The notes: generated from the sequence alone by a model not told the origin. Shown: positions 1 through 15,113, counted from the stretch's first letter. The stretch: 64,000 bases of DNA from Minisyncoccota bacterium (GCA_041663045.1 JBAZRH010000002.1:7179-71178); one strand, 5' to 3'. Numbers and translations are program-made.

Positions 1-16
1 CAAAAGAGAAGATAAA

Positions 17-40
17 CGCCCGCCGTAAGAACGGCGGGCG
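17..40 (-). terminator. Perfect GC hairpin (cgcccgccg / taagaa / cggcgggcg) followed by an A/T run; DGR VR-flanking hairpin and/or intrinsic terminator of target gene 1
   Basis: 9-bp all-GC stem with a 6-nt loop. An identical copy at 2810-2833 sits downstream of the second VR. The flanking sequence (aaacgcccgccgtaagaacggcgggcgcaaaaatcaa) is shared by both copies. Confidence 0.7.
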
Positions 41-50
41 CAAAAATCAA

Positions 51-119
51 ACCCCGTCAGAAGTCTTCAATGTTTTAATTTATCTTTAATCACTAAGCGC
101 GTTGGACTTCTGACGGGGT
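51..119. repeat. 69-bp palindromic insertion (15-16-bp perfect terminal inverted repeats accccgtcagaagtc ... gacttctgacggggt) between the VR1 stop codon and the conserved GC hairpin
   Basis: It is absent from the otherwise identical VR2 3' flank (2836-2842 joins caaaaatcaa directly to atctcgagg). It forms a long hairpin and creates the TAA stop of gene 119..970. Confidence 0.7.
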
Positions 120-970
120 TAAATCTCGAGGAGGACAACACGATAAGCGGCAAGCCATGAATCGCCTAGCCAGTCCGCACTGCGAAGCCAACCCGACCCG
201 TCCCAACGCGCAGACGGAACAAACCAGTCGCCGCCGGAACTGCGAACGAGGGAACCGGGAAAATAGAACCATACATCCGTATCTTTCAAAGAGGGTGGTG
301 TCTTGGTCGGGTTTTCAGTAAGCCATTTCCAATATTCCAAACCGGGGATGTGGTGGGTACCAGAGTAAGTATCCGCTAGATGCTTAAAGACATCACAGAG
401 TGGTCTGCCGACAAAGGAGGACAGGTCTGGGATAAAGATTTTGGATTCCTGAATATTTTCGAAATCTATATTCTGCATGTCTGGATTCAACATGTATTCG
501 CCGAATTTATCAGTATCGGTATCATCTTTTAGAGCGGTGTAGTCTTGGTCTTCTGGCTTGATTAGGGTGGGAACAAACCCTTTTTCTGGTTTTCCAAAAA
601 GTCCTTCCAAAATAGCTTTGTTTTGAGAATTGAGAGAAGTAATATCTGGGACAGATTCTTGAGGCAGATCTTTATCGCTTGATAGCATTTCTTTTATTTT
701 ATCTATTTGCTTGTCTGCCCGCAAAAGATCCTTTTGCATCTCTAATTTTCTTTTTTCTCCACTTCCTTCTGGTTCACCCTCTTTGTCATCAAAATCGCCT
801 TTCTCCAGCATGTCTTCATAAATATCTATCTGTTCCAAAGCATAAAGGCGAATATTCTCCATCCGTTCCGAAAGAGCTTGGCGAAGCTCTTCTTGAGTTT
901 TCTCTGGTCTTTGGGATTTTTCTGGAGATTTACGGCCTTTAGCCATCTGGTTTATAGCTTCAAAATTCAT
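119..970 (-). CDS. DGR target protein 1: coiled-coil/charged N-terminus plus C-terminal C-type-lectin/FGE-like variable domain (ends AAYRVVLLEI); no signal peptide
   Basis: The C-terminal roughly 150 aa is homologous to the C-terminus of the 2840..5218 product. The last about 45 codons form VR1 (122-258). Confidence 0.8.
   Translation of the reverse strand: MNFEAINQMAKGRKSPEKSQRPEKTQEELRQALSERMENIRLYALEQIDIYEDMLEKGDFDDKEGEPEGSGEKRKLEMQKDLLRADKQIDKIKEMLSSDKDLPQESVPDITSLNSQNKAILEGLFGKPEKGFVPTLIKPEDQDYTALKDDTDTDKFGEYMLNPDMQNIDFENIQESKIFIPDLSSFVGRPLCDVFKHLADTYSGTHHIPGLEYWKWLTENPTKTPPSLKDTDVWFYFPGSLVRSSGGDWFVPSARWDGSGWLRSADWLGDSWLAAYRVVLLEI
122..258 (-). repeat. DGR variable region VR1
   Basis: Differs from TR (2341-2468) at about 25 positions. 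Essentially all of them are positions where TR has A on the coding strand (AAT/AAC Asn codons in TR become S, D, F, R, L, G codons here). Confidence 0.85.
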
Positions 971-1039
971 ACTAATATGATAACAAATTTAAATATAATT
1001 TAACAGGGTATGATTATAATCTTATAACTCATGGTCTTA

Positions 1040-1899
1040 GATTGCCAATCTTTTCTAGCAAATCTGTCTTGATCTTGTGGGTATTTCCATAACTCAATAA
1101 CCCTAAATATGATAAAACCACTTCCTCCTTTGTATCGGGGAAAATGGCTTGATACATTCTTATTTTTGTCCTCGTCCGTAAGACTCAATATTTCTCAAAA
1201 TGTACCCAACCGAGAAAATCTATTCCAGAGCTCGCGGTTTTTATAAATACCTTGTCCGGATGTAATTCTAATTTTAAATTCTCTGCTAGAAATAATTTCA
1301 CCTTAGGTATCAAACCTTCAAGCCACAACTTATCTCTGCGGTATACCCTTGAGAAAACTGTCTATGACCGTATGAATGACCTGAATAAATCTCGGACATA
1401 CTATATGCCGATCGATTATCTTTTTTAAAATCTGATGGTCAATAGAAGCAAAACATTTTCTAATATCACCCTTCAATATCCAGACGGTTTTGGTATTATT
1501 TAAGCCTTCTTTTCTGACAAAAGACTTAAACCTAGCCAGTGCCCGATGCGTCCCCTTTTCCAGACGACAAGAATATGAATCAAAAATAAAAAATCGGTCA
1601 AAATATGGATATACTGCCCGATAAATAGCGTGATGGACTATTCTGTCTTTGACTGTCGCTTTATGAATATCCCGCAGTTTTGGCTCTCTGATTTGAAAAA
1701 ACTTATATCCTCCGTGGCGATAGGTGCCATTCATAATTTCCTCTTTTAAATCAAAGATACTTCCTGATAGGTTAAGAAAGAAATCCGCAACATCTGCCTT
1801 TTTCTTTTTGCCGTTTCTGAATTCTAACCAACTTCTCATCAGAGATTGATAAGAGAAAATCTCTTCAAACTTGCCAGTGTATGTTTTATCTTTATGCAT
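1040..1899 (-). pseudogene. DGR-type reverse transcriptase, disrupted (frameshifts plus internal deletion removing the motif 4/5 YxDD region)
   Basis: ORF 1330..1899 encodes RT motifs 1-3 (YRHGGYKFFQIREPKLRDI, DRIVHHAIY, FIFDSYSCRLEKGTHRALARF, LKGDIRKCFASIDH) and then stops at GIPQR. A second frame continues DKLWLEGL..LKLELHPDKVFIKTASSGIDFLGWVHF (motifs 6/7). A third frame gives SYLGLLSYGNTHKI (DGR RT C-terminal motif). No YxDD can be found. Confidence 0.7.
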
Positions 1900-1914
1900 T
1901 ATAATAGCTAAATT

Positions 1915-2340
1915 ATGAATATTAAAAAGAAATCATTTTTACCGCCAAAAAAATTATCAGGGATAACATCAAATCTACTGGAAGCTTATGTCTTCTGGCA
2001 AAGTAAGACCAAACATATCCCCAAGATGCTCCGCTATTCCATGGGTGTGCGGATTGATTCTATTTTTGCGGAAATGATAGAGACAGTTTACATCGCAATA
2101 TTTACTTCTCCAGAAAAGAGAGCCCTCTTGATAGATAAGGCTAATACCAGAAATGATTTACTCAAATTCATGCTCAATGTCTTGTTTGAACTAAAAGGTC
2201 TGAAAGAAGACGCCTTCAGTGAAATCTCATTGAAAATGGAAGAGATCGGCCGAGTGCTATACGGTTGGAGAAATCAAGTGGAAAGACAAAACCAAAACGG
2301 TTCGACAAAAGCCGAACCTATTGGAAATGATAAAAAGTAA
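1915..2340 (+). CDS. avd: Avd-like accessory variability determinant (four-helix-bundle protein)
   Basis: 141 aa. The pattern IPKMLRYSMGVRIDSIFAEMIETVYIAIF ... KFMLNVLFEL ... EEIGRVLYGWRNQV matches the Avd / 23S-IVS four-helix-bundle family. Its stop codon abuts the TR. Confidence 0.65.
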   Translation: MNIKKKSFLPPKKLSGITSNLLEAYVFWQSKTKHIPKMLRYSMGVRIDSIFAEMIETVYIAIFTSPEKRALLIDKANTRNDLLKFMLNVLFELKGLKEDAFSEISLKMEEIGRVLYGWRNQVERQNQNGSTKAEPIGNDKK

Positions 2341-2468
2341 CGAGGAGGACAACGCGATATTCGGCATTCCACGAATTGTCTAGCCAGTTCGCATTGCGAT
2401 TCCAATCCGACCCGTCCCAATTCGCATACGGCACATTCCAGTTGCCGTCGGAATTGCGAACGAGGGAA
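2341..2468 (-). repeat. DGR template repeat (TR)
   Basis: Coding-sense translation is SLVRNSDGNWNVPYANWDGSDWNRNANWLDNSWNAEYRVVLL, with 10 AAT/AAC codons. Both VRs differ from it only at its adenines. It is not in a credible gene (ORFs 2318..2548 and 2274..2504 are spurious readings of it). Confidence 0.85.
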
Positions 2469-2809
2469 CGATAGTGCAAAGGCCATCGAGTCCACTGCCA
2501 GCAAGAGGCCTTACCCAATTGTACCGGCTGAATATAATTTGGTATCATAATGCCCCAGTCTTTGCACAGATTTTTTATCTTTTTTCAGAATATGGAACAC
2601 ACTTTTCTTTGAAATTTCGCAGAAAATCCTGGCACCATATATCTCGACACTGCATCGTGAAAGATTCACTCCGTTAAAAGCTTTAGCAGGGTTAATCCCG
2701 CACGCATATTTGCAAGTGCCTAAACAATATAACATTATATCCCCACAATCCAAAAAAATTCGCAAAAACAAGAGAAATCAAAAAACAGAAAGGCAGAAGA
2801 GAAGACAAA

Positions 2810-2833
2810 CGCCCGCCGTAAGAACGGCGGGCG
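2810..2833 (-). terminator. GC hairpin identical to 17-40, immediately downstream of the VR2 stop codon; DGR homing-associated hairpin and/or terminator
   Basis: cgcccgccg taagaa cggcgggcg, placed 7 nt past the TGA of 2840..5218. Confidence 0.7.
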
Positions 2834-2839
2834 CAAAAA

Positions 2840-5218
2840 TCAAATCTCGAGGAGGACAACGCGATACGCGGCACTCCACGAATCGCCTAGCCAGCGCGCA
2901 CTGCGATACCAACCCGACCCGTCCCAAGACGCACACGGCACAATCCAGTAGCCGCCGGAATTGCGAACGAGGGAACCAAAGTTGAAGTAGTATTTGCCGT
3001 CTTTTAAATTCACTCCTTTTGCATCAGCTGGCACTTTGTCCGGATTTTCCAATATAAATTTCCAGTATTCAATGCCTGGTAGTCGGTATTTGTCTGAATA
3101 ATTGTCAATCAGGTGTTTTGCTACTTCCGAAAGTGGTTTACCGTTGAGAGCAGAAAGGTCGGGGACGAAGATTTTGTCTTTTAGAGACTCCCAGTCCAGA
3201 TTTTGAGTATCGGGATTTACAGTAAACTCACCAAATTTAGAGGTATCAATATCAGCTTTTCTGGCTTGATAGTCTTCGGTCTTCGGATCCATGATTATTG
3301 GTTCTATGGTAGTGTCTTTTATTTTCTCATCTGAAATACCCCACATTTTATATGTCTGCTCAAGGAAAGAGGTGAATTCGGTCTTGAGGGATTCGGAATC
3401 AAGAGTCTCCTGTTTTTTGTCTGGCTTGCCTTTTAATTTTCTCCTCATAGATTTACTGAAATTATCTCCCTTTTCGGCATTTTCATCTCCCAAAAGAGCT
3501 TCAGCTTTACCCTTCAATAATTCGGCTCGTTTATGAAACGGGTCAAGCTCGGCGACTTCTTTTAAGCTTAAGTGCTTAATGTCTCCTGATTTTTCTTTCA
3601 ATTCTTCAACCGCTTCTTCACCGCGCATTGCCTTGATAGTATTGAATTTAAAGACATCATCCGGCAAATCAAGCTCTTTTGCGGTGAGAGTGAGTAGGAA
3701 ACCTTTTGAGGCTAGAATCTTGGCAACTAAAATTCTATCTTCTTTGGTGTATTCTTTGAATGTGAGAGCTGTCTTGAATCTTTCGTCCAAAAACTCGGCA
3801 AATGTCCTGCCGTTTTTACCGGTCTGCTTTTCTACAAGCCAAGAAGAGAGGATCGCTTCCACCGAACCTTGAGTCATTACGAATTTCTTGAGTGAATACA
3901 CTTTCCCTGAAGCATCCATCGCACCGGCTTTTCTTGCCACTTCTTTGTCGGTTTCATTGGTATAAGACTCTTGTATATCTGCCATCGCCTTACAAAGGTT
4001 CGGCAAGGTGGTATTCAAATCATAATATGACATATCTAAAGAGCCATCTCTATTCAAAAGGCGAGCAAGCATAATATCATAAGCTTCGTCAGCTGGAGTA
4101 TATTTGACTTCTAAGTTGTTTTGCTCAAATTCGCGAGCGATTTCTGGCGGGAGATCTTGCCTTTCAGGATTCTTCTCGGATTTTAGGTTGGCTGTAAAGA
4201 CCATCTGAAAGCCTGGCTTGATTTCTACGACACCGTTTCCCACAATATTTATCCTATCACCGACTTTTGCATTAAAAACACCTTTGATAAAGACCATTTG
4301 CTCTTTTGGCAAAGCCGTGAATTCATCAAATATAACTGTCCTGCCTTCCATCATTGCTCTTGCAAGAGGTCCGTATATTTCGACGGTTTCTATCGCACCG
4401 TCTTTGGCTGGTCTTATACCTGTCTTGCCCCAGACATTGGATTCTTTTGTCTGTGGATTACAAAAGACCATCTCCGAATCTTTGCCAGTAAAATGCGATG
4501 ATGCAAACCTTGCAAGAGATGTCTTGCCTGTCCCCGTTGGCCCATGTAAGAATATCGGCTTTCCAGTAAGCATTCTGTCCCCTATTGCCTCCAAGGCTTT
4601 TTCTACTGTTGGAGTAACACAAATATGCCCGCTTTGACCAAGATCTTCTTTATATTCTATGAGCTCTGCCTTGCGAAGAGTAATCTGATCAGATTGTTCT
4701 AATCTGGCCTCACTGGCTTCAAGCTCTTCTTTGATTGTCTTGAGCACCGCTTCATTTCTCTTTCTTGTCGGCAAAGAAATCCTTTTATCCAAAATCTCCA
4801 ACATTCTTCGCATTCTAAAATCTTTTAAATCAGAAATATTCTCTACGGTCTTTAGGACATCTGCGATTTCTGGATTTTCCCCAAGTATCGCCTCTTGATC
4901 GATTTGTGAAGAGTTTTCTGCAAGGTTTCCTTCGTATTCTGTTTTCTGTTTTCTAAGGGCTTCTTTGGCACCCTTTAAACCACTATCTTCTGGGTTTGGA
5001 TTTTTCTTATCTTTAAAATCAGCAATCTTAAAAGCAGACGCCTTTTTATCTAAAGCTTCTTTTTCTCCTTTATAGTGCTTCTCAAAGATTTCAGTTTCAG
5101 GACTGCTTTCATCACCCTCTTTTATATCAAGTTCTTGAATTGCTTTCCTCAATTCTTTTCTTCCTTCAGAAATCTCATGAAAATTAGGTATCTTTTCCAT
5201 ATTTAGATTATAAAACAA
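2840..5218 (-). CDS. DGR target protein 2: AAA+ ATPase (AAA_5, MoxR/McrB-like) with C-terminal C-type-lectin/FGE-like variable domain; no signal peptide
   Basis: Walker A FLHGPTGTGKTSLARF, Walker B VIFDEFTAL, then QMVFTANL. N-terminal coiled coil. The C-terminal 150 aa is paralogous to the 119..970 product and ends ...SWDGSGWYRSARWLGDSWSAAYRVVLLEI. Confidence 0.85.
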   Translation of the reverse strand: MFYNLNMEKIPNFHEISEGRKELRKAIQELDIKEGDESSPETEIFEKHYKGEKEALDKKASAFKIADFKDKKNPNPEDSGLKGAKEALRKQKTEYEGNLAENSSQIDQEAILGENPEIADVLKTVENISDLKDFRMRRMLEILDKRISLPTRKRNEAVLKTIKEELEASEARLEQSDQITLRKAELIEYKEDLGQSGHICVTPTVEKALEAIGDRMLTGKPIFLHGPTGTGKTSLARFASSHFTGKDSEMVFCNPQTKESNVWGKTGIRPAKDGAIETVEIYGPLARAMMEGRTVIFDEFTALPKEQMVFIKGVFNAKVGDRINIVGNGVVEIKPGFQMVFTANLKSEKNPERQDLPPEIAREFEQNNLEVKYTPADEAYDIMLARLLNRDGSLDMSYYDLNTTLPNLCKAMADIQESYTNETDKEVARKAGAMDASGKVYSLKKFVMTQGSVEAILSSWLVEKQTGKNGRTFAEFLDERFKTALTFKEYTKEDRILVAKILASKGFLLTLTAKELDLPDDVFKFNTIKAMRGEEAVEELKEKSGDIKHLSLKEVAELDPFHKRAELLKGKAEALLGDENAEKGDNFSKSMRRKLKGKPDKKQETLDSESLKTEFTSFLEQTYKMWGISDEKIKDTTIEPIIMDPKTEDYQARKADIDTSKFGEFTVNPDTQNLDWESLKDKIFVPDLSALNGKPLSEVAKHLIDNYSDKYRLPGIEYWKFILENPDKVPADAKGVNLKDGKYYFNFGSLVRNSGGYWIVPCASWDGSGWYRSARWLGDSWSAAYRVVLLEI
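2843..2977 (-). repeat. DGR variable region VR2
   Basis: About 85% identical to TR, with mismatches confined to TR-adenine positions. It is the 3' end of the AAA+ ATPase gene. Confidence 0.85.
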
Positions 5219-5236
5219 ATCAAACTAATTTACCAT

Positions 5237-6307
5237 CTACTTAACATACTTGGAATATCTGCCCAAAATTTTTGAGAATGCTTCAAGAGATGGATATTTG
5301 TATTGATAGCCGTAAGCCCTCGTGATCTTTGAACCATCTACTGCTATGGGGTATGAGTAAGATTTCCAACCACCTTTTGAGGTTGGCACCTTTCCACGAC
5401 TCAAATGCCAGAAAATAAAGAATACGATTCTCACCATCCAAGGATAAACTGTAATACTTTTTTTATTTACAGCTTTTGCCATATCTTTTCCTAGCACCGG
5501 GTCGCCAGGCGGGCAAATATTGAAAACATCATAATCTTTTTTTAAATCTGAAAAAGTGAGAAGCGAGATAATATCCACGACATCATCTTCATGAATAAAC
5601 TGTCGAAGCCACTTTGGTGTAACAGGCACAAAAGACACCATCTTGGCGATTATCCTGTGAAGCATATTTTCTTTGAGCTGTCCTGAAAGGGCGGACTGCA
5701 AACCAAAACGCACTTTCATATATCTGCCCCTTGGGCCAGTGATGGCGGCGGGTCTGACAACAGCGACTTTTATATCTTTATTTGCTTTCTTTGCCTCTTT
5801 GAATTTCTCCTCCAGATGTTCCTCGCTTATCCTTTTTTCTTCGGCATAAAGATAATCGCTCTTTCTAAAAGGTTCGGCTTCTGTGAAGCGGTGCTCTAAA
5901 GTATTTGTAGAATATGCGGAATATGAAGCGACTGTAGAAAAATGTATCAGCTTTTTGACGCTATTATTTAGAAATGCAAAATCAAAAACATTGTCAGACC
6001 CAGTAATATTCCATTTCCACTGCAAAGCTTTCTGCCCATACATCTCTCGTATCTGCCACGCACTGTGGATGACGATGTCTGGAGCATAAGAGCGGGCATT
6101 GTTCTGCCAGCTGTCGTCCCCGAGATTCGCCTGTATAAAAACTATTTTATTTTTATTTGGATTTTCTTTCAAGAATTCAGGAAGTGGATCTTTGTCTACG
6201 CCGATAATAGTCTCCACATCTTCCCTGCCGGAGAAAATATCAAGAAGCATTGCGCCGACATATCCAGAAGCGCCTGTTATAAGTATTTTGTGTTTCATTG
6301 CCGACAT
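5237..6307 (-). CDS. NAD-dependent epimerase/dehydratase family protein (SDR Rossmann fold)
   Basis: N-terminal [16 protein letters not shown] glycine-rich NAD-binding motif; the size fits the sugar-epimerase family. Confidence 0.6.
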
Positions 6308-11049: not shown

Positions 11050-11165
11050 TTTGTTCCGGCGACTAGCTACTTTTCCCACCGAAGTGAGTATCATTGCCTC
11101 AACAGGGCTTAACTTCTGAGTTCGGAATGAGATCAGGTGTGACCCCTGCGACGAATCACCAGAAC
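11050..11165 (-). rRNA. rrf: 5S ribosomal RNA
   Basis: The reverse complement contains cacctgatctcattccgaactcagaagttaagccc, matching the universal 5S CCGAACTCAGAAGTGAAAC region. Length is about 115 nt. Confidence 0.85.
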
Positions 11166-11254
11166 AAAATATTCGAATATTGTGAAAAATTAATCTCACA
11201 TAACAGGTTAAAACAATTGTGTATTTCTAAATTTCCTAATAAGAATCGGATAAT

Positions 11255-14800
<3,546 letters not shown>

Positions 14801-15113
14801 TAGGAAATTTAAAAACCACAATTATTCATCCGCCTACAAGACGGACAAATTTGTTTTAACCTGTTATGTAAAATCAATCGCGCAAAATGAATTATAAATA
14901 ATTCATCGCCCGACTCGTCACATAAACAGTATTTATATCTAACTATTTTCTTCAAGAAAAATAATTAGACTTACCTGCCTGTCTATAATATCTATAAAAG
15001 ACCCAAATCACCCTCTGGTGATAAATTGGTGATATTACGACAGCATGTGTCTCGATTAGAATGGTTATTTTATAACCTTTTTCTAACGAGAGTTATTTGT
15101 CAATTTACAATCT

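What the first reader, a model, noticed from the sequence alone, without database searches (positions are those of the whole stretch)
1..5218. Diversity-generating retroelement with adenine-specific TR/VR pattern and two target genes
Three copies of an about 130-bp sequence are 80-90% identical. The copy at 2341-2468 is non-genic and lies beside an Avd-like gene and an RT gene. Essentially every difference from the two genic copies (122-258, 2843-2977) sits where the 2341-2468 copy has A on the coding strand. Ten AAT/AAC Asn codons in it become S/D/Y/F/I/R/L codons in the targets; gat becomes ggt, tat becomes tct/tgt, gaa becomes gca. This is the defining signature of DGR mutagenic retrohoming. 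The diversified peptide ends in the classic C-type-lectin/FGE-fold motif (...W.DGSGW.RSA.WLGDSW.AAYRVVLL). Both VRs are followed by the same 9-bp GC hairpin, like the cruciform that supports homing in characterised DGRs.
Basis: partly seen in the sequence, partly recalled or inferred. Interest (0 to 1): 0.9.

Follow-up and report, generated by a model that had tools for sequence, protein, structure and literature searches.

The report
Patescibacterial DGR with a broken reverse transcriptase
This is a real diversity-generating retroelement of the type already known to be common in Candidate Phyla Radiation bacteria, but its reverse transcriptase gene has lost its catalytic core, so the adenine-specific variation in its target genes records past activity and cannot be renewed by this locus alone.

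Summary
A 129-nt template repeat (TR, 2341-2469, sense on the minus strand) is copied at the 3' ends of two genes: VR1 at 127-255 and VR2 at 2848-2976. VR2 differs from the TR at 16 sites, all TR adenines. VR1 differs at 22 sites, 19 of them adenines (p about 1e-13 each). An Avd gene, a stem-loop just 3' of the TR, an A-free IMH-like end and GC hairpins after the VRs complete a DGR. Its layout is target-TR-(avd, opposite strand)-RT, the "B3" architecture typical of CPR DGRs.

- The RT gene is a pseudogene. A clean 122-nt deletion at 1337|1338 removes motif 4 (LGNLTSQ) and the catalytic YADD box and shifts the frame. A TGA stop follows at 1185-1187. Relatives about 83% identical encode intact 331-aa RTs, and an independent assembly of the same run shows the same deletion.
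- There is a third target (VWA-adjacent, 285 aa) just left of window position 1.
- The AAA-ATPase/C-type-lectin target is the commonest CPR DGR target already described.

Verdict: an ordinary member of a known DGR clade, recently inactivated. Interest is low to moderate.

The parts
16..41 (-). GC-rich hairpin (10-11 bp stem, 4-nt loop) followed by a T-rich tail, downstream of the VR1 gene. It is part of a 56-nt repeat (1-56) shared with 2794-2849.
   Evidence: (D2, I3)
49..120 (-). 72-nt element with perfect 16-nt inverted-repeat arms (50-65 / 105-120), inserted between the VR1 stop codon and the GC hairpin. It is absent after VR2 and VR3. Relatives carry a hairpin at the same place with a different but still complementary stem.
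   Evidence: I11; z = -7.4
119..970 (-). Target gene 1 (283 aa; WC631_02260). It has an N-terminal helical hairpin and a C-terminal C-type-lectin-like domain that carries VR1.
127..255 (-). VR1: 22 mismatches to the TR, 19 at TR adenines and 3 synonymous non-A changes.
1032..1899 (-). DGR reverse transcriptase pseudogene. The N-terminal fragment (1330-1899, 189 aa) ends ...KGIPQR*. A 122-nt deletion at 1337|1338 removes LGNLTSQ (motif 4) and YADD (motif 5) and shifts the frame. The C-terminal 102 codons (1032-1337) remain readable in another frame, interrupted by TGA at 1185-1187.
1915..2340 (+). avd accessory gene (141 aa), intact. It lies on the strand opposite to the TR, RT and targets, between the TR and the RT.
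   Evidence: PF22296 bAvd, E 3.7e-7, 31 bits, below the 40-bit cut-off; NF033474 DivGenRetAVD, E 2.6e-9, below cut-off; opposite strand in 76 of 77 loci
2299..2318 (-). Stem-loop (8 bp, UUUU loop) followed by GUUUUGGUUUUG, 22 nt 3' of the TR and antisense within the avd 3' end. It is a candidate Avd-binding stem-loop and/or the 3' end of the TR RNA.
   Evidence: 65 of 67 related loci have one, with 64 different stem sequences; bioRxiv 10.1101/2023.10.23.563531, section 10
2341..2469 (-). Template repeat (TR). It has 27 adenines and 9 AAY codons. It ends in an A-free stretch, CGCGTTGTCCTCCTCG, after which the TR (TTACTTTT) and the VRs (AGATTTRA) diverge, as IMH*/IMH sequences do.
2470..2808 (-). 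Non-coding leader between the VR2 terminator hairpin and the TR. It is conserved at about 79% with relatives, like the flanking genes. It presumably holds the TR-RNA promoter and upstream RNA elements, which were not mapped.
   Evidence: no consensus promoter found by the scan
2809..2834 (-). GC-rich hairpin with T tail, 14 nt after the end of VR2 homology (same sequence as 16-41).
   Evidence: z = -6.9
2840..5200 (-). Target gene 2 (786 aa from the ATG at 5200; 792 aa from the upstream TTG at 5218). It combines a MoxR/dynein-type AAA_5 ATPase (residues about 222-347, Walker A GPTGTGKT) with a C-terminal lectin-like domain that carries VR2.
2848..2976 (-). VR2: 16 mismatches to the TR, all at TR adenines.

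Best explanation
The locus is a chromosomal diversity-generating retroelement (DGR) of a Candidatus Paceibacterota (CPR/Patescibacteria) bacterium. It belongs to the CPR-typical layout target - TR - (avd, reverse strand) - RT - target.

Inferred mechanism when the element was intact. A TR RNA was transcribed on the minus strand. It comprised a leader, the 129-nt TR and the 3' stem-loop. An RT-Avd complex bound this RNA and reverse-transcribed it with random misincorporation opposite adenines. The cDNA then replaced the homologous 3' ends of three genes: the AAA_5 ATPase-lectin fusion, the 283-aa protein, and a 285-aa protein next to a vWA gene just outside the window. This rewrote up to 27 positions (9 AAY codons) in the ligand-binding face of a C-type-lectin-like domain.

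Present state. The RT has lost motif 4 and the YADD catalytic box through a 122-nt frameshifting deletion, and it carries an additional in-frame stop. The element is therefore no longer autonomous and the three VRs are frozen variants. The inactivation is probably recent. Avd, the TR, the stem-loop and all three target ORFs are intact. The out-of-frame RT remnant has no further indels and is as similar to intact relatives as they are to each other.

Shown: repeat anatomy, A-bias, the RT lesions, homologies and conserved synteny. Inferred: the transcription unit, the homing mechanism, the roles of the hairpins and the timing of inactivation.
For: A-specific TR/VR mismatches: VR2 16/16, VR1 19/22, and VR3 (in L005) 16/18, with p of 1e-11 to 1e-13.

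RT homology. The N-terminal RT fragment hits RVT_1. Its homologues at 72-84% identity are 327-331-aa RTs. One of them, P0003, aligns end to end with PDB 8ub7_A (E 2.6e-37). That chain shows IGSLTSQ aligned to LGNLTSQ and YMDD aligned to YADD, and from my own knowledge its sequence is Bordetella phage bRT.

RT lesions. tblastn and DNA alignment show that P0003 residues 188 to about 227 are missing through a 122-nt gap, and that CGC has become TGA. The identical sequence occurs in an independent Logan contig of run SRR18595301 (L004, 100% over window 22-2779). No other RT lies in the window.

Avd. HMM hits. avd is on the opposite strand between the TR and the RT in 76 of 77 related loci. This is architecture B3 of Wu et al. 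(PMC5758913).

Activity in relatives. Relatives have the same gene order with an intact RT. L001 and L003 share an identical TR and RT but differ in the VR of the same gene at A sites, so the family is active elsewhere.

RNA element. A stem-loop lies 3' of the TR in 65 of 67 loci. This matches the 'Avd-binding stem-loop' reported for 207 of 278 DGRs (bioRxiv 10.1101/2023.10.23.563531).

Against: Only 64 kb of a contig of at least 295 kb is visible, so a second DGR RT elsewhere in the genome that could act in trans is not excluded. Several CPR genomes carry two RTs.

No read data were available. An intact-RT subpopulation cannot be excluded.

The non-A mismatch counts (3, 0 and 2) fall within the range seen in relatives with an intact RT, so they give no independent evidence of long inactivity.

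No promoter for the TR RNA was identified.
Confidence: 0.85

Rival explanations
1. The DGR is still active because the RT deletion is not fixed. In this reading the assembled sequence is one haplotype (or a consensus artefact), and other cells of the population keep an intact RT.
For: Inactivation looks very recent. Avd, the TR, the stem-loop and all targets are intact, and the out-of-frame RT remnant has only one additional lesion. Metagenome assemblies report a single haplotype.
Against: Two different assemblies, the MAG and Logan contig L004, give the identical deleted sequence. There are two independent lesions, the deletion and the TGA stop. All three VR-bearing genes assemble uninterrupted in the k-mer-based single-run Logan contigs L004, L005 and L086. 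That would be unexpected if the VRs were hypervariable in that sample, though this is weak evidence. No repeat flanks the deletion that could cause an assembly collapse.
Confidence: 0.08
2. The locus is a non-autonomous TR/VR/Avd set served in trans by an intact RT of another DGR elsewhere in the same genome.
For: Some CPR genomes in the related-locus set carry two DGR RTs, for example L025/L026, L030/L060 and L075/L076. Avd, the TR and its stem-loop are preserved here.
Against: No second RT lies in the 64-kb window. In the Bordetella system, RT-Avd recognises extensive cognate RNA structure around the TR (bioRxiv 10.1101/2023.10.23.563531), so only a close paralogue could substitute. The rest of the genome could not be fetched.
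Confidence: 0.07
3. The locus is not a DGR. In this reading the three copies are ordinary paralogous 3' gene ends plus a pseudogene fragment, and the A-bias is coincidental.
For: The two small targets are paralogues, and the RT is non-functional.
Against: 35 of 38 differences within the window fall on the 21% of positions that are TR adenines (p about 1e-13 per VR). The TR copy is non-coding and sits exactly where TRs sit in 60 or more related DGR loci. Avd and an RT homologue adjoin it.
Confidence: 0.005

Closest known systems
CPR/Patescibacteria DGRs: architecture B3 'TR-(avd)-RT' of Wu et al. 2018 (PMC5758913); RT clade 2 of Roux et al. 2021 (PMC8144416); described first by Paul et al. 2017 as cited in those papers
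   Same: Same gene order and avd inversion (76 of 77 relatives). The VR lies about 450 nt upstream of the TR, and the TR about 430 nt upstream of the RT. An AAA-ATPase fused to a C-terminal lectin-like VR domain is reported as the commonest CPR target (PMC10907252) and corresponds to the Midasin/AAA 'UVR4' class of Wu et al.. Multiple targets are served by one TR.
   Different: The RT here is a deletion pseudogene. The published catalogues were built from intact RTs, so decayed copies like this one are not enumerated in them.
Bordetella phage BPP-1 DGR (mtd-avd-TR-brt)
   Same: Same adenine-specific TR-to-VR information flow. The RT family is homologous end to end to bRT (E 2.6e-37). Both have an Avd, an A-free GC-rich IMH-like end of homology followed by TR/VR divergence, a GC hairpin downstream of the VR, and a stem-loop just 3' of the TR.
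   Different: Here avd is inverted and lies between the TR and the RT. The element is chromosomal, not phage-borne. It has three apparently cytoplasmic targets (no signal peptide evident by eye) instead of one tail-fibre protein. The hairpin also looks like an intrinsic terminator. The RT is inactive.
DGR-diversified MoxR-vWA 'ternary' conflict systems (Kaur et al. 2020, PMC7159879; Doré et al. 2024, PMC10907252)
   Same: A MoxR-like AAA_5 ATPase, a vWA-domain protein (L005, 685 aa) and DGR-diversified lectin/FGS domains are clustered. A PemK/MazF-type toxin gene is adjacent.
   Different: Here the lectin domain is fused to the ATPase and to two small coiled-coil proteins, not to the vWA protein. 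No VMAP, peptidase, TIR or adaptor domains were found. The bpMoxR HMM score is below threshold (21.8 against 27 bits). The RT belongs to the CPR clade, not clade 5.

Membership tests
Diversity-generating retroelement (DGR) | A TR/VR repeat pair whose mismatches are concentrated at TR adenines | tested here: met
   VR2 16/16, VR1 19/22, VR3 16/18; p of 1e-11 to 1e-13
Diversity-generating retroelement (DGR) | An intact DGR-clade reverse transcriptase with motif 4 [I/L/V]GxxxSQ and catalytic YxDD | tested here: not met
   The gene is of the DGR clade: relatives align to 8ub7_A at E 2.6e-37 and carry LGNLTSQ and YADD. In the window a 122-nt deletion removes exactly these motifs and shifts the frame, and a TGA stop follows.
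Diversity-generating retroelement (DGR) | An accessory variability determinant (Avd) gene next to the TR and RT | tested here: met
   PF22296 bAvd, E 3.7e-7 (31 bits, cut-off 40). NF033474 DivGenRetAVD, E 2.6e-9 (37 bits, cut-off 80). Orthologues in 77 related loci occupy the same position. Both scores are below the curated cut-offs, so membership rests on the HMM hits together with synteny.
Diversity-generating retroelement (DGR) | The VR lies at the 3' end of a target ORF, within a C-type-lectin (or Ig) fold | tested here: inconclusive
Diversity-generating retroelement (DGR) | IMH/IMH* boundary and an inverted repeat downstream of the VR | tested here: met
   An A-free 16-nt GC-rich end of homology is followed by divergent VR (AGATTTRA) and TR (TTACTTTT) sequence. 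A GC hairpin follows VR1, VR2 and VR3. Its function in homing is not testable here, and the hairpin also fits a terminator pattern.
Diversity-generating retroelement (DGR) | A structured RNA element (Avd-binding stem-loop) just 3' of the TR | tested here: met
   An 8-bp stem with a tetraloop lies at 2299-2318, 22 nt after the TR. An equivalent hairpin occurs in 65 of 67 related loci with 64 different stem sequences. Compare bioRxiv 10.1101/2023.10.23.563531.
Diversity-generating retroelement (DGR) | Ongoing diversification (VR heterogeneity within the population) | not testable with these tools
   No reads are available. The only hint is weak: clean assembly of all three VRs in single-run Logan contigs argues against strong heterogeneity.
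CPR DGR architecture B3 (Wu et al. 2018) | Core order TR - (avd on the reverse strand) - RT | tested here: met
   Window: TR 2341-2469 (-), avd 1915-2340 (+), RT 1899-1032 (-). The same order is seen in relatives. Definition taken from PMC5758913.
MoxR-vWA (VMAP) ternary conflict system (Kaur et al. 2020) | A MoxR ATPase, a vWA protein and a VMAP protein with effector or adaptor domains | tested here: not met
   AAA_5 is present, but bpMoxR scores below threshold. A vWA protein is present outside the window. No VMAP or effector domain was found in the neighbouring genes.

The most novel reading that the evidence does not exclude
RT loss could be more than decay. It could be a recurrent, selectable way of 'locking in' a favourable set of VR variants. 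This lineage keeps Avd, the TR, the TR stem-loop and three intact, purifying-selected targets while the RT alone is knocked out, so hypermutation could be re-enabled by recombination with, or trans-complementation from, a related DGR in the population.
Probability: 0.08. Interest if true: 0.5.

Novelty: new member of a known kind. Interest (0 to 1): 0.25.

Why it matters
The locus adds one more example to the large, already catalogued clade of CPR DGRs, so it changes little. Its modest value is as a clean natural example of a just-inactivated DGR. Every component except the RT catalytic core is preserved, and close relatives with an intact RT are available for comparison. DGR surveys that start from intact RTs miss such loci. 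With read data, the locus could show how fast VRs drift once mutagenic homing stops.

Tried and rejected
1. Alternative genetic code (TGA sense, as in some CPR lineages) as an explanation for the broken RT. Rejected: the first break is a TAA stop after a frameshift, 122 nt are physically missing, and long ORFs elsewhere in the window read normally with table 11.

2. Looking for the missing RT segment or a second RT elsewhere in the window. tblastn found nothing.

3. Fetching the left flank or the whole 295-kb contig. Exact-protein look-ups returned only short Logan contigs. The genome is not a GTDB representative. An exact 37-mer scan of JGI metagenome contigs found nothing.

4. Sequence-level detection of an FGE/CLec domain with Pfam at E up to 10, NCBIfam and PDB phmmer. 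No hits.

6. Using non-A mismatches as a clock for inactivity. Rejected, because relatives with an intact RT show similar fractions.

7. Searching for a 'cPRT Stop'-like duplex between sequences upstream and downstream of the TR with RNAduplex. It gave only diffuse global pairings and no conclusion.

8. Treating the long inverted repeat after VR1 as a general feature of the clade. It occurs only in the closest relatives.

9. Rfam. No known RNA family lies in 1-5300.


Full report
**Observation**

The region holds three ungapped copies of a 129-nt sequence: 127-255, 2341-2469 and 2848-2976 (family D1, blastn E 4e-34 to 6e-46 within the window). I read them on the minus strand, which is the coding strand of the two genes that end in the outer copies.

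- The middle copy differs from 2848-2976 at 16 positions. All 16 are adenines in the middle copy.
- It differs from 127-255 at 22 positions, 19 of them adenines.
- The middle copy has 27 A in 129 nt. The hypergeometric probability of each pattern is about 1e-13.
- The three non-A differences in VR1 are synonymous third-position changes (GTG>GTT, TCG>TCA, CGC>CGT).
- The adenines sit almost entirely at codon positions 1 and 2 (25 of 27).

The middle copy is a template repeat (TR) and the outer ones are variable repeats (VR1, VR2).

**The other DGR parts**

- **Avd.** ORF 1915-2340 on the plus strand matches the Avd models (PF22296, E 3.7e-7; NF033474, E 2.6e-9). Both scores are below the curated cut-offs.
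- **RT.** ORF 1330-1899 on the minus strand matches RVT_1. It has more than 1000 homologues, and the closest intact ones (72-84% identity) are 327-331 aa. One of them, P0003, aligns over its whole length with PDB chain 8ub7_A at E 2.6e-37. From my own knowledge, that chain's sequence is the Bordetella phage bRT. In the alignment IGSLTSQ matches LGNLTSQ and YMDD matches YADD. The next best structures are group II intron RTs at about 1e-16.
- **End of homology.** TR-VR homology ends in an A-free GC-rich stretch (CGCGTTGTCCTCCTCG). After it the VRs read AGATTTRA and the TR reads TTACTTTT, as expected for IMH and IMH*.
- **VR hairpin.** A GC hairpin with a T-rich tail follows each VR.
- **TR stem-loop.** An 8-bp stem with a tetraloop and a U-rich tail (2299-2318) lies 22 nt after the TR. 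I found an equivalent hairpin in 65 of 67 distinct related loci, with 64 different stem sequences. It was followed by a T-rich tail in 48. In a control segment the counts were 35 of 68 and 1 of 68. This matches the 'Avd-binding stem-loop just downstream of TR' reported for 207 of 278 Avd-containing DGRs, including CPR ones (bioRxiv 10.1101/2023.10.23.563531).

**The twist: the RT is a pseudogene**

- The 189-aa ORF ends ...KGIPQR*.
- The continuation (RDKLWLEGLIPK...FLGWVHFEKY) is in another frame.
- tblastn with P0003 and a DNA alignment with the RT genes of L001 and L002 show a clean 122-nt deletion between window 1338 and 1337.
- The deletion removes P0003 residues 188 to about 227. These comprise the DGR-specific motif 4 (LGNLTSQ) and the catalytic YADD box.
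- Further on, a conserved Arg/His codon has become TGA (1185-1187).
- This is not a recoding artefact. DNA is missing, the first stop is TAA, and other long ORFs in the window read normally with table 11.
- It is not an artefact of the MAG assembler. A Logan contig assembled independently from run SRR18595301 (L004) is 100% identical to window 22-2779, deletion included.
- No other RT-like sequence exists in the 64 kb.

A reverse transcriptase without YxDD cannot polymerise. This follows from established knowledge of RT motif C. The locus therefore cannot perform mutagenic retrohoming by itself.

**How recent**

The rest of the element is intact: Avd, the TR, the stem-loop and all target ORFs. 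The out-of-frame 102-codon RT remnant has no indels. It is 71-81% identical to intact relatives, which is the range those relatives show among themselves. The inactivation therefore looks recent.

Non-A mismatches cannot be used as a clock. Many relatives with an intact RT show A fractions of 0.77-0.95.

**Context and relatives**

The source is a MAG annotated Candidatus Paceibacterota (locus tags WC631_02260 and WC631_02265, contig 295 kb).

- Close relatives (L001-L003, L006, L007 and the P0004 contig) have the same order: a 782-792-aa AAA_5 protein (VR), TR, avd (reverse strand), RT (331 aa), a 285-aa protein (VR), PemK, optionally NYN, a vWA protein, and a 285-331-aa protein (VR).
- In 76 of 77 related loci avd lies on the strand opposite to the RT, between the TR and the RT.
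- TR/VR pairs with A-bias occupy the same relative positions in about 60 of those loci.
- This is architecture B3, 'TR-(avd)-RT', which Wu et al. 2018 report for 90% of CPR DGRs (PMC5758913).
- L001 and L003 share an identical TR and RT but carry different A-site variants in the same target gene, so the family is active elsewhere.

**A third target**

P0125 (285 aa, WC631_02245) is 63% identical to the 283-aa target and comes from the same contig. Its Logan contig (L005) carries PemK, a 685-aa vWA protein and P0125. L005 ends in the same GC hairpin, and its other end resembles the sequence downstream of that hairpin. It therefore probably lies immediately left of window position 1. Its VR3 differs from the TR at 18 sites, 16 of them adenines. 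The DGR thus serves three targets, not two.

**Target proteins**

- No sequence method recognises the VR-bearing domain.
- An AlphaFold model of the C-terminal 158 residues is confident (pLDDT 91, pTM 0.86).
- I take this as support for a divergent CLec-type fold, not proof.
- The 786/792-aa target has an AAA_5 (MoxR/dynein-type) ATPase domain (E 3.5e-12).
- According to PMC10907252, citing Paul et al. 2017, an AAA ATPase fused to a CLec domain is the commonest CPR DGR target. Wu et al. list a Midasin/AAA class, 'UVR4'.
- The AAA+/vWA/lectin combination resembles the DGR-linked MoxR-vWA conflict systems (PMC7159879, PMC10907252). No VMAP or effector component was found, so I do not file the locus there.
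- By eye, the target N-termini are charged and lack signal peptides, so an intracellular ligand-sensing role is plausible. This is inference only.

**Hairpins after the VRs**

The 10-11-bp GC hairpin is identical after VR1, VR2 and VR3. It is followed by a T-rich tail, so it fits an intrinsic terminator as well as the homing cruciform of BPP-1.

At VR1 a 72-nt element with perfect 16-nt inverted arms sits between the stop codon and this hairpin. In the closest relatives every VR has a hairpin at that site with a different but complementary stem: CCCGTCACCAATTT/AAATTGGTGATGGG in the relatives against CCCCGTCAGAAGTC/GACTTCTGACGGGG here. This suggests a conserved structure. It is absent after VR2 and VR3 here and in more distant relatives.

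**Rivals**

- **Polymorphic deletion with an intact-RT subpopulation (about 0.08).** Argued against by two concordant assemblies, two independent lesions, and clean assembly of all three VRs in single-run k-mer contigs. Only reads can settle it.
- **Trans-complementation by another DGR RT in the genome (about 0.07).** I could not fetch the rest of the genome.
- **Non-DGR origin of the repeats.** Excluded by the mismatch statistics.

**Verdict**

This is a genuine DGR of the well-described CPR type. The architecture and target class are the most common ones known for this clade, and the element's RT is dead. Novelty: a new member of a known kind. Interest: about 0.25.

Noticed in passing
window 49-120 (arms 50-65 / 105-120), minus strand, between the VR1 stop codon and the GC hairpin: A 72-nt element with perfect 16-nt inverted-repeat arms (DNA fold z = -7.4). 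The closest relatives have a hairpin at the same place after every VR, with a different but still complementary stem, which looks like covariation. VR2 and VR3 of this genome lack it precisely. Its function is unknown. Candidates are a second homing or cruciform element, or an RNA-stability element.
   Followed up: partly
L005 (Logan contig SRR18595301_308809), probably immediately left of window position 1: A third DGR target (285 aa; VR at L005 3414-3542, 16 of 18 mismatches at TR adenines) is preceded by a 685-aa vWA-domain gene and a PemK/MazF-type toxin gene. The DGR locus therefore extends beyond the window edge.
   Followed up: yes
window 2299-2318 (minus strand) and the equivalent position in L001-L085: A stem-loop plus U-tract lies 10-30 nt 3' of the TR in 65 of 67 related CPR DGR loci, with 64 different stem sequences. 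In the window it lies antisense inside the 3' end of the avd ORF. It matches the 'Avd-binding stem-loop' of Handa et al., but it also looks like an intrinsic terminator for the TR RNA.
   Followed up: partly
window 11233-14804 (23S rRNA, minus strand), 11534-11767, and 11054-11163 (5S rRNA): The 23S rRNA gene spans 3572 nt against a 2925-position model. It contains a sub-threshold group I intron match (27.4 bits, E 4e-4). A 5S gene follows it, but no 16S gene or tRNA gene occurs anywhere in the 64-kb window. From my own knowledge, unlinked rRNA genes and rRNA insertions are known in CPR bacteria.
   Followed up: partly
L001 2957-3085 and 7551-7679: In relative L001 the VRs of two different target genes (285 aa and 331 aa), and about 200 nt downstream of them, are identical. 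This could reflect a very recent duplication or gene conversion, or an assembly collapse of the repeated 3' ends.
   Followed up: no
VR1 (window 127-255) and VR3 (L005 3414-3542), TR core position 38 (1-based; index 37 in the output): VR1 and VR3 share the same non-adenine difference from the TR (GTG>GTT), while VR2 matches the TR. This may reflect an older TR state, exchange between the two small paralogous targets, or coincidence.
   Followed up: no
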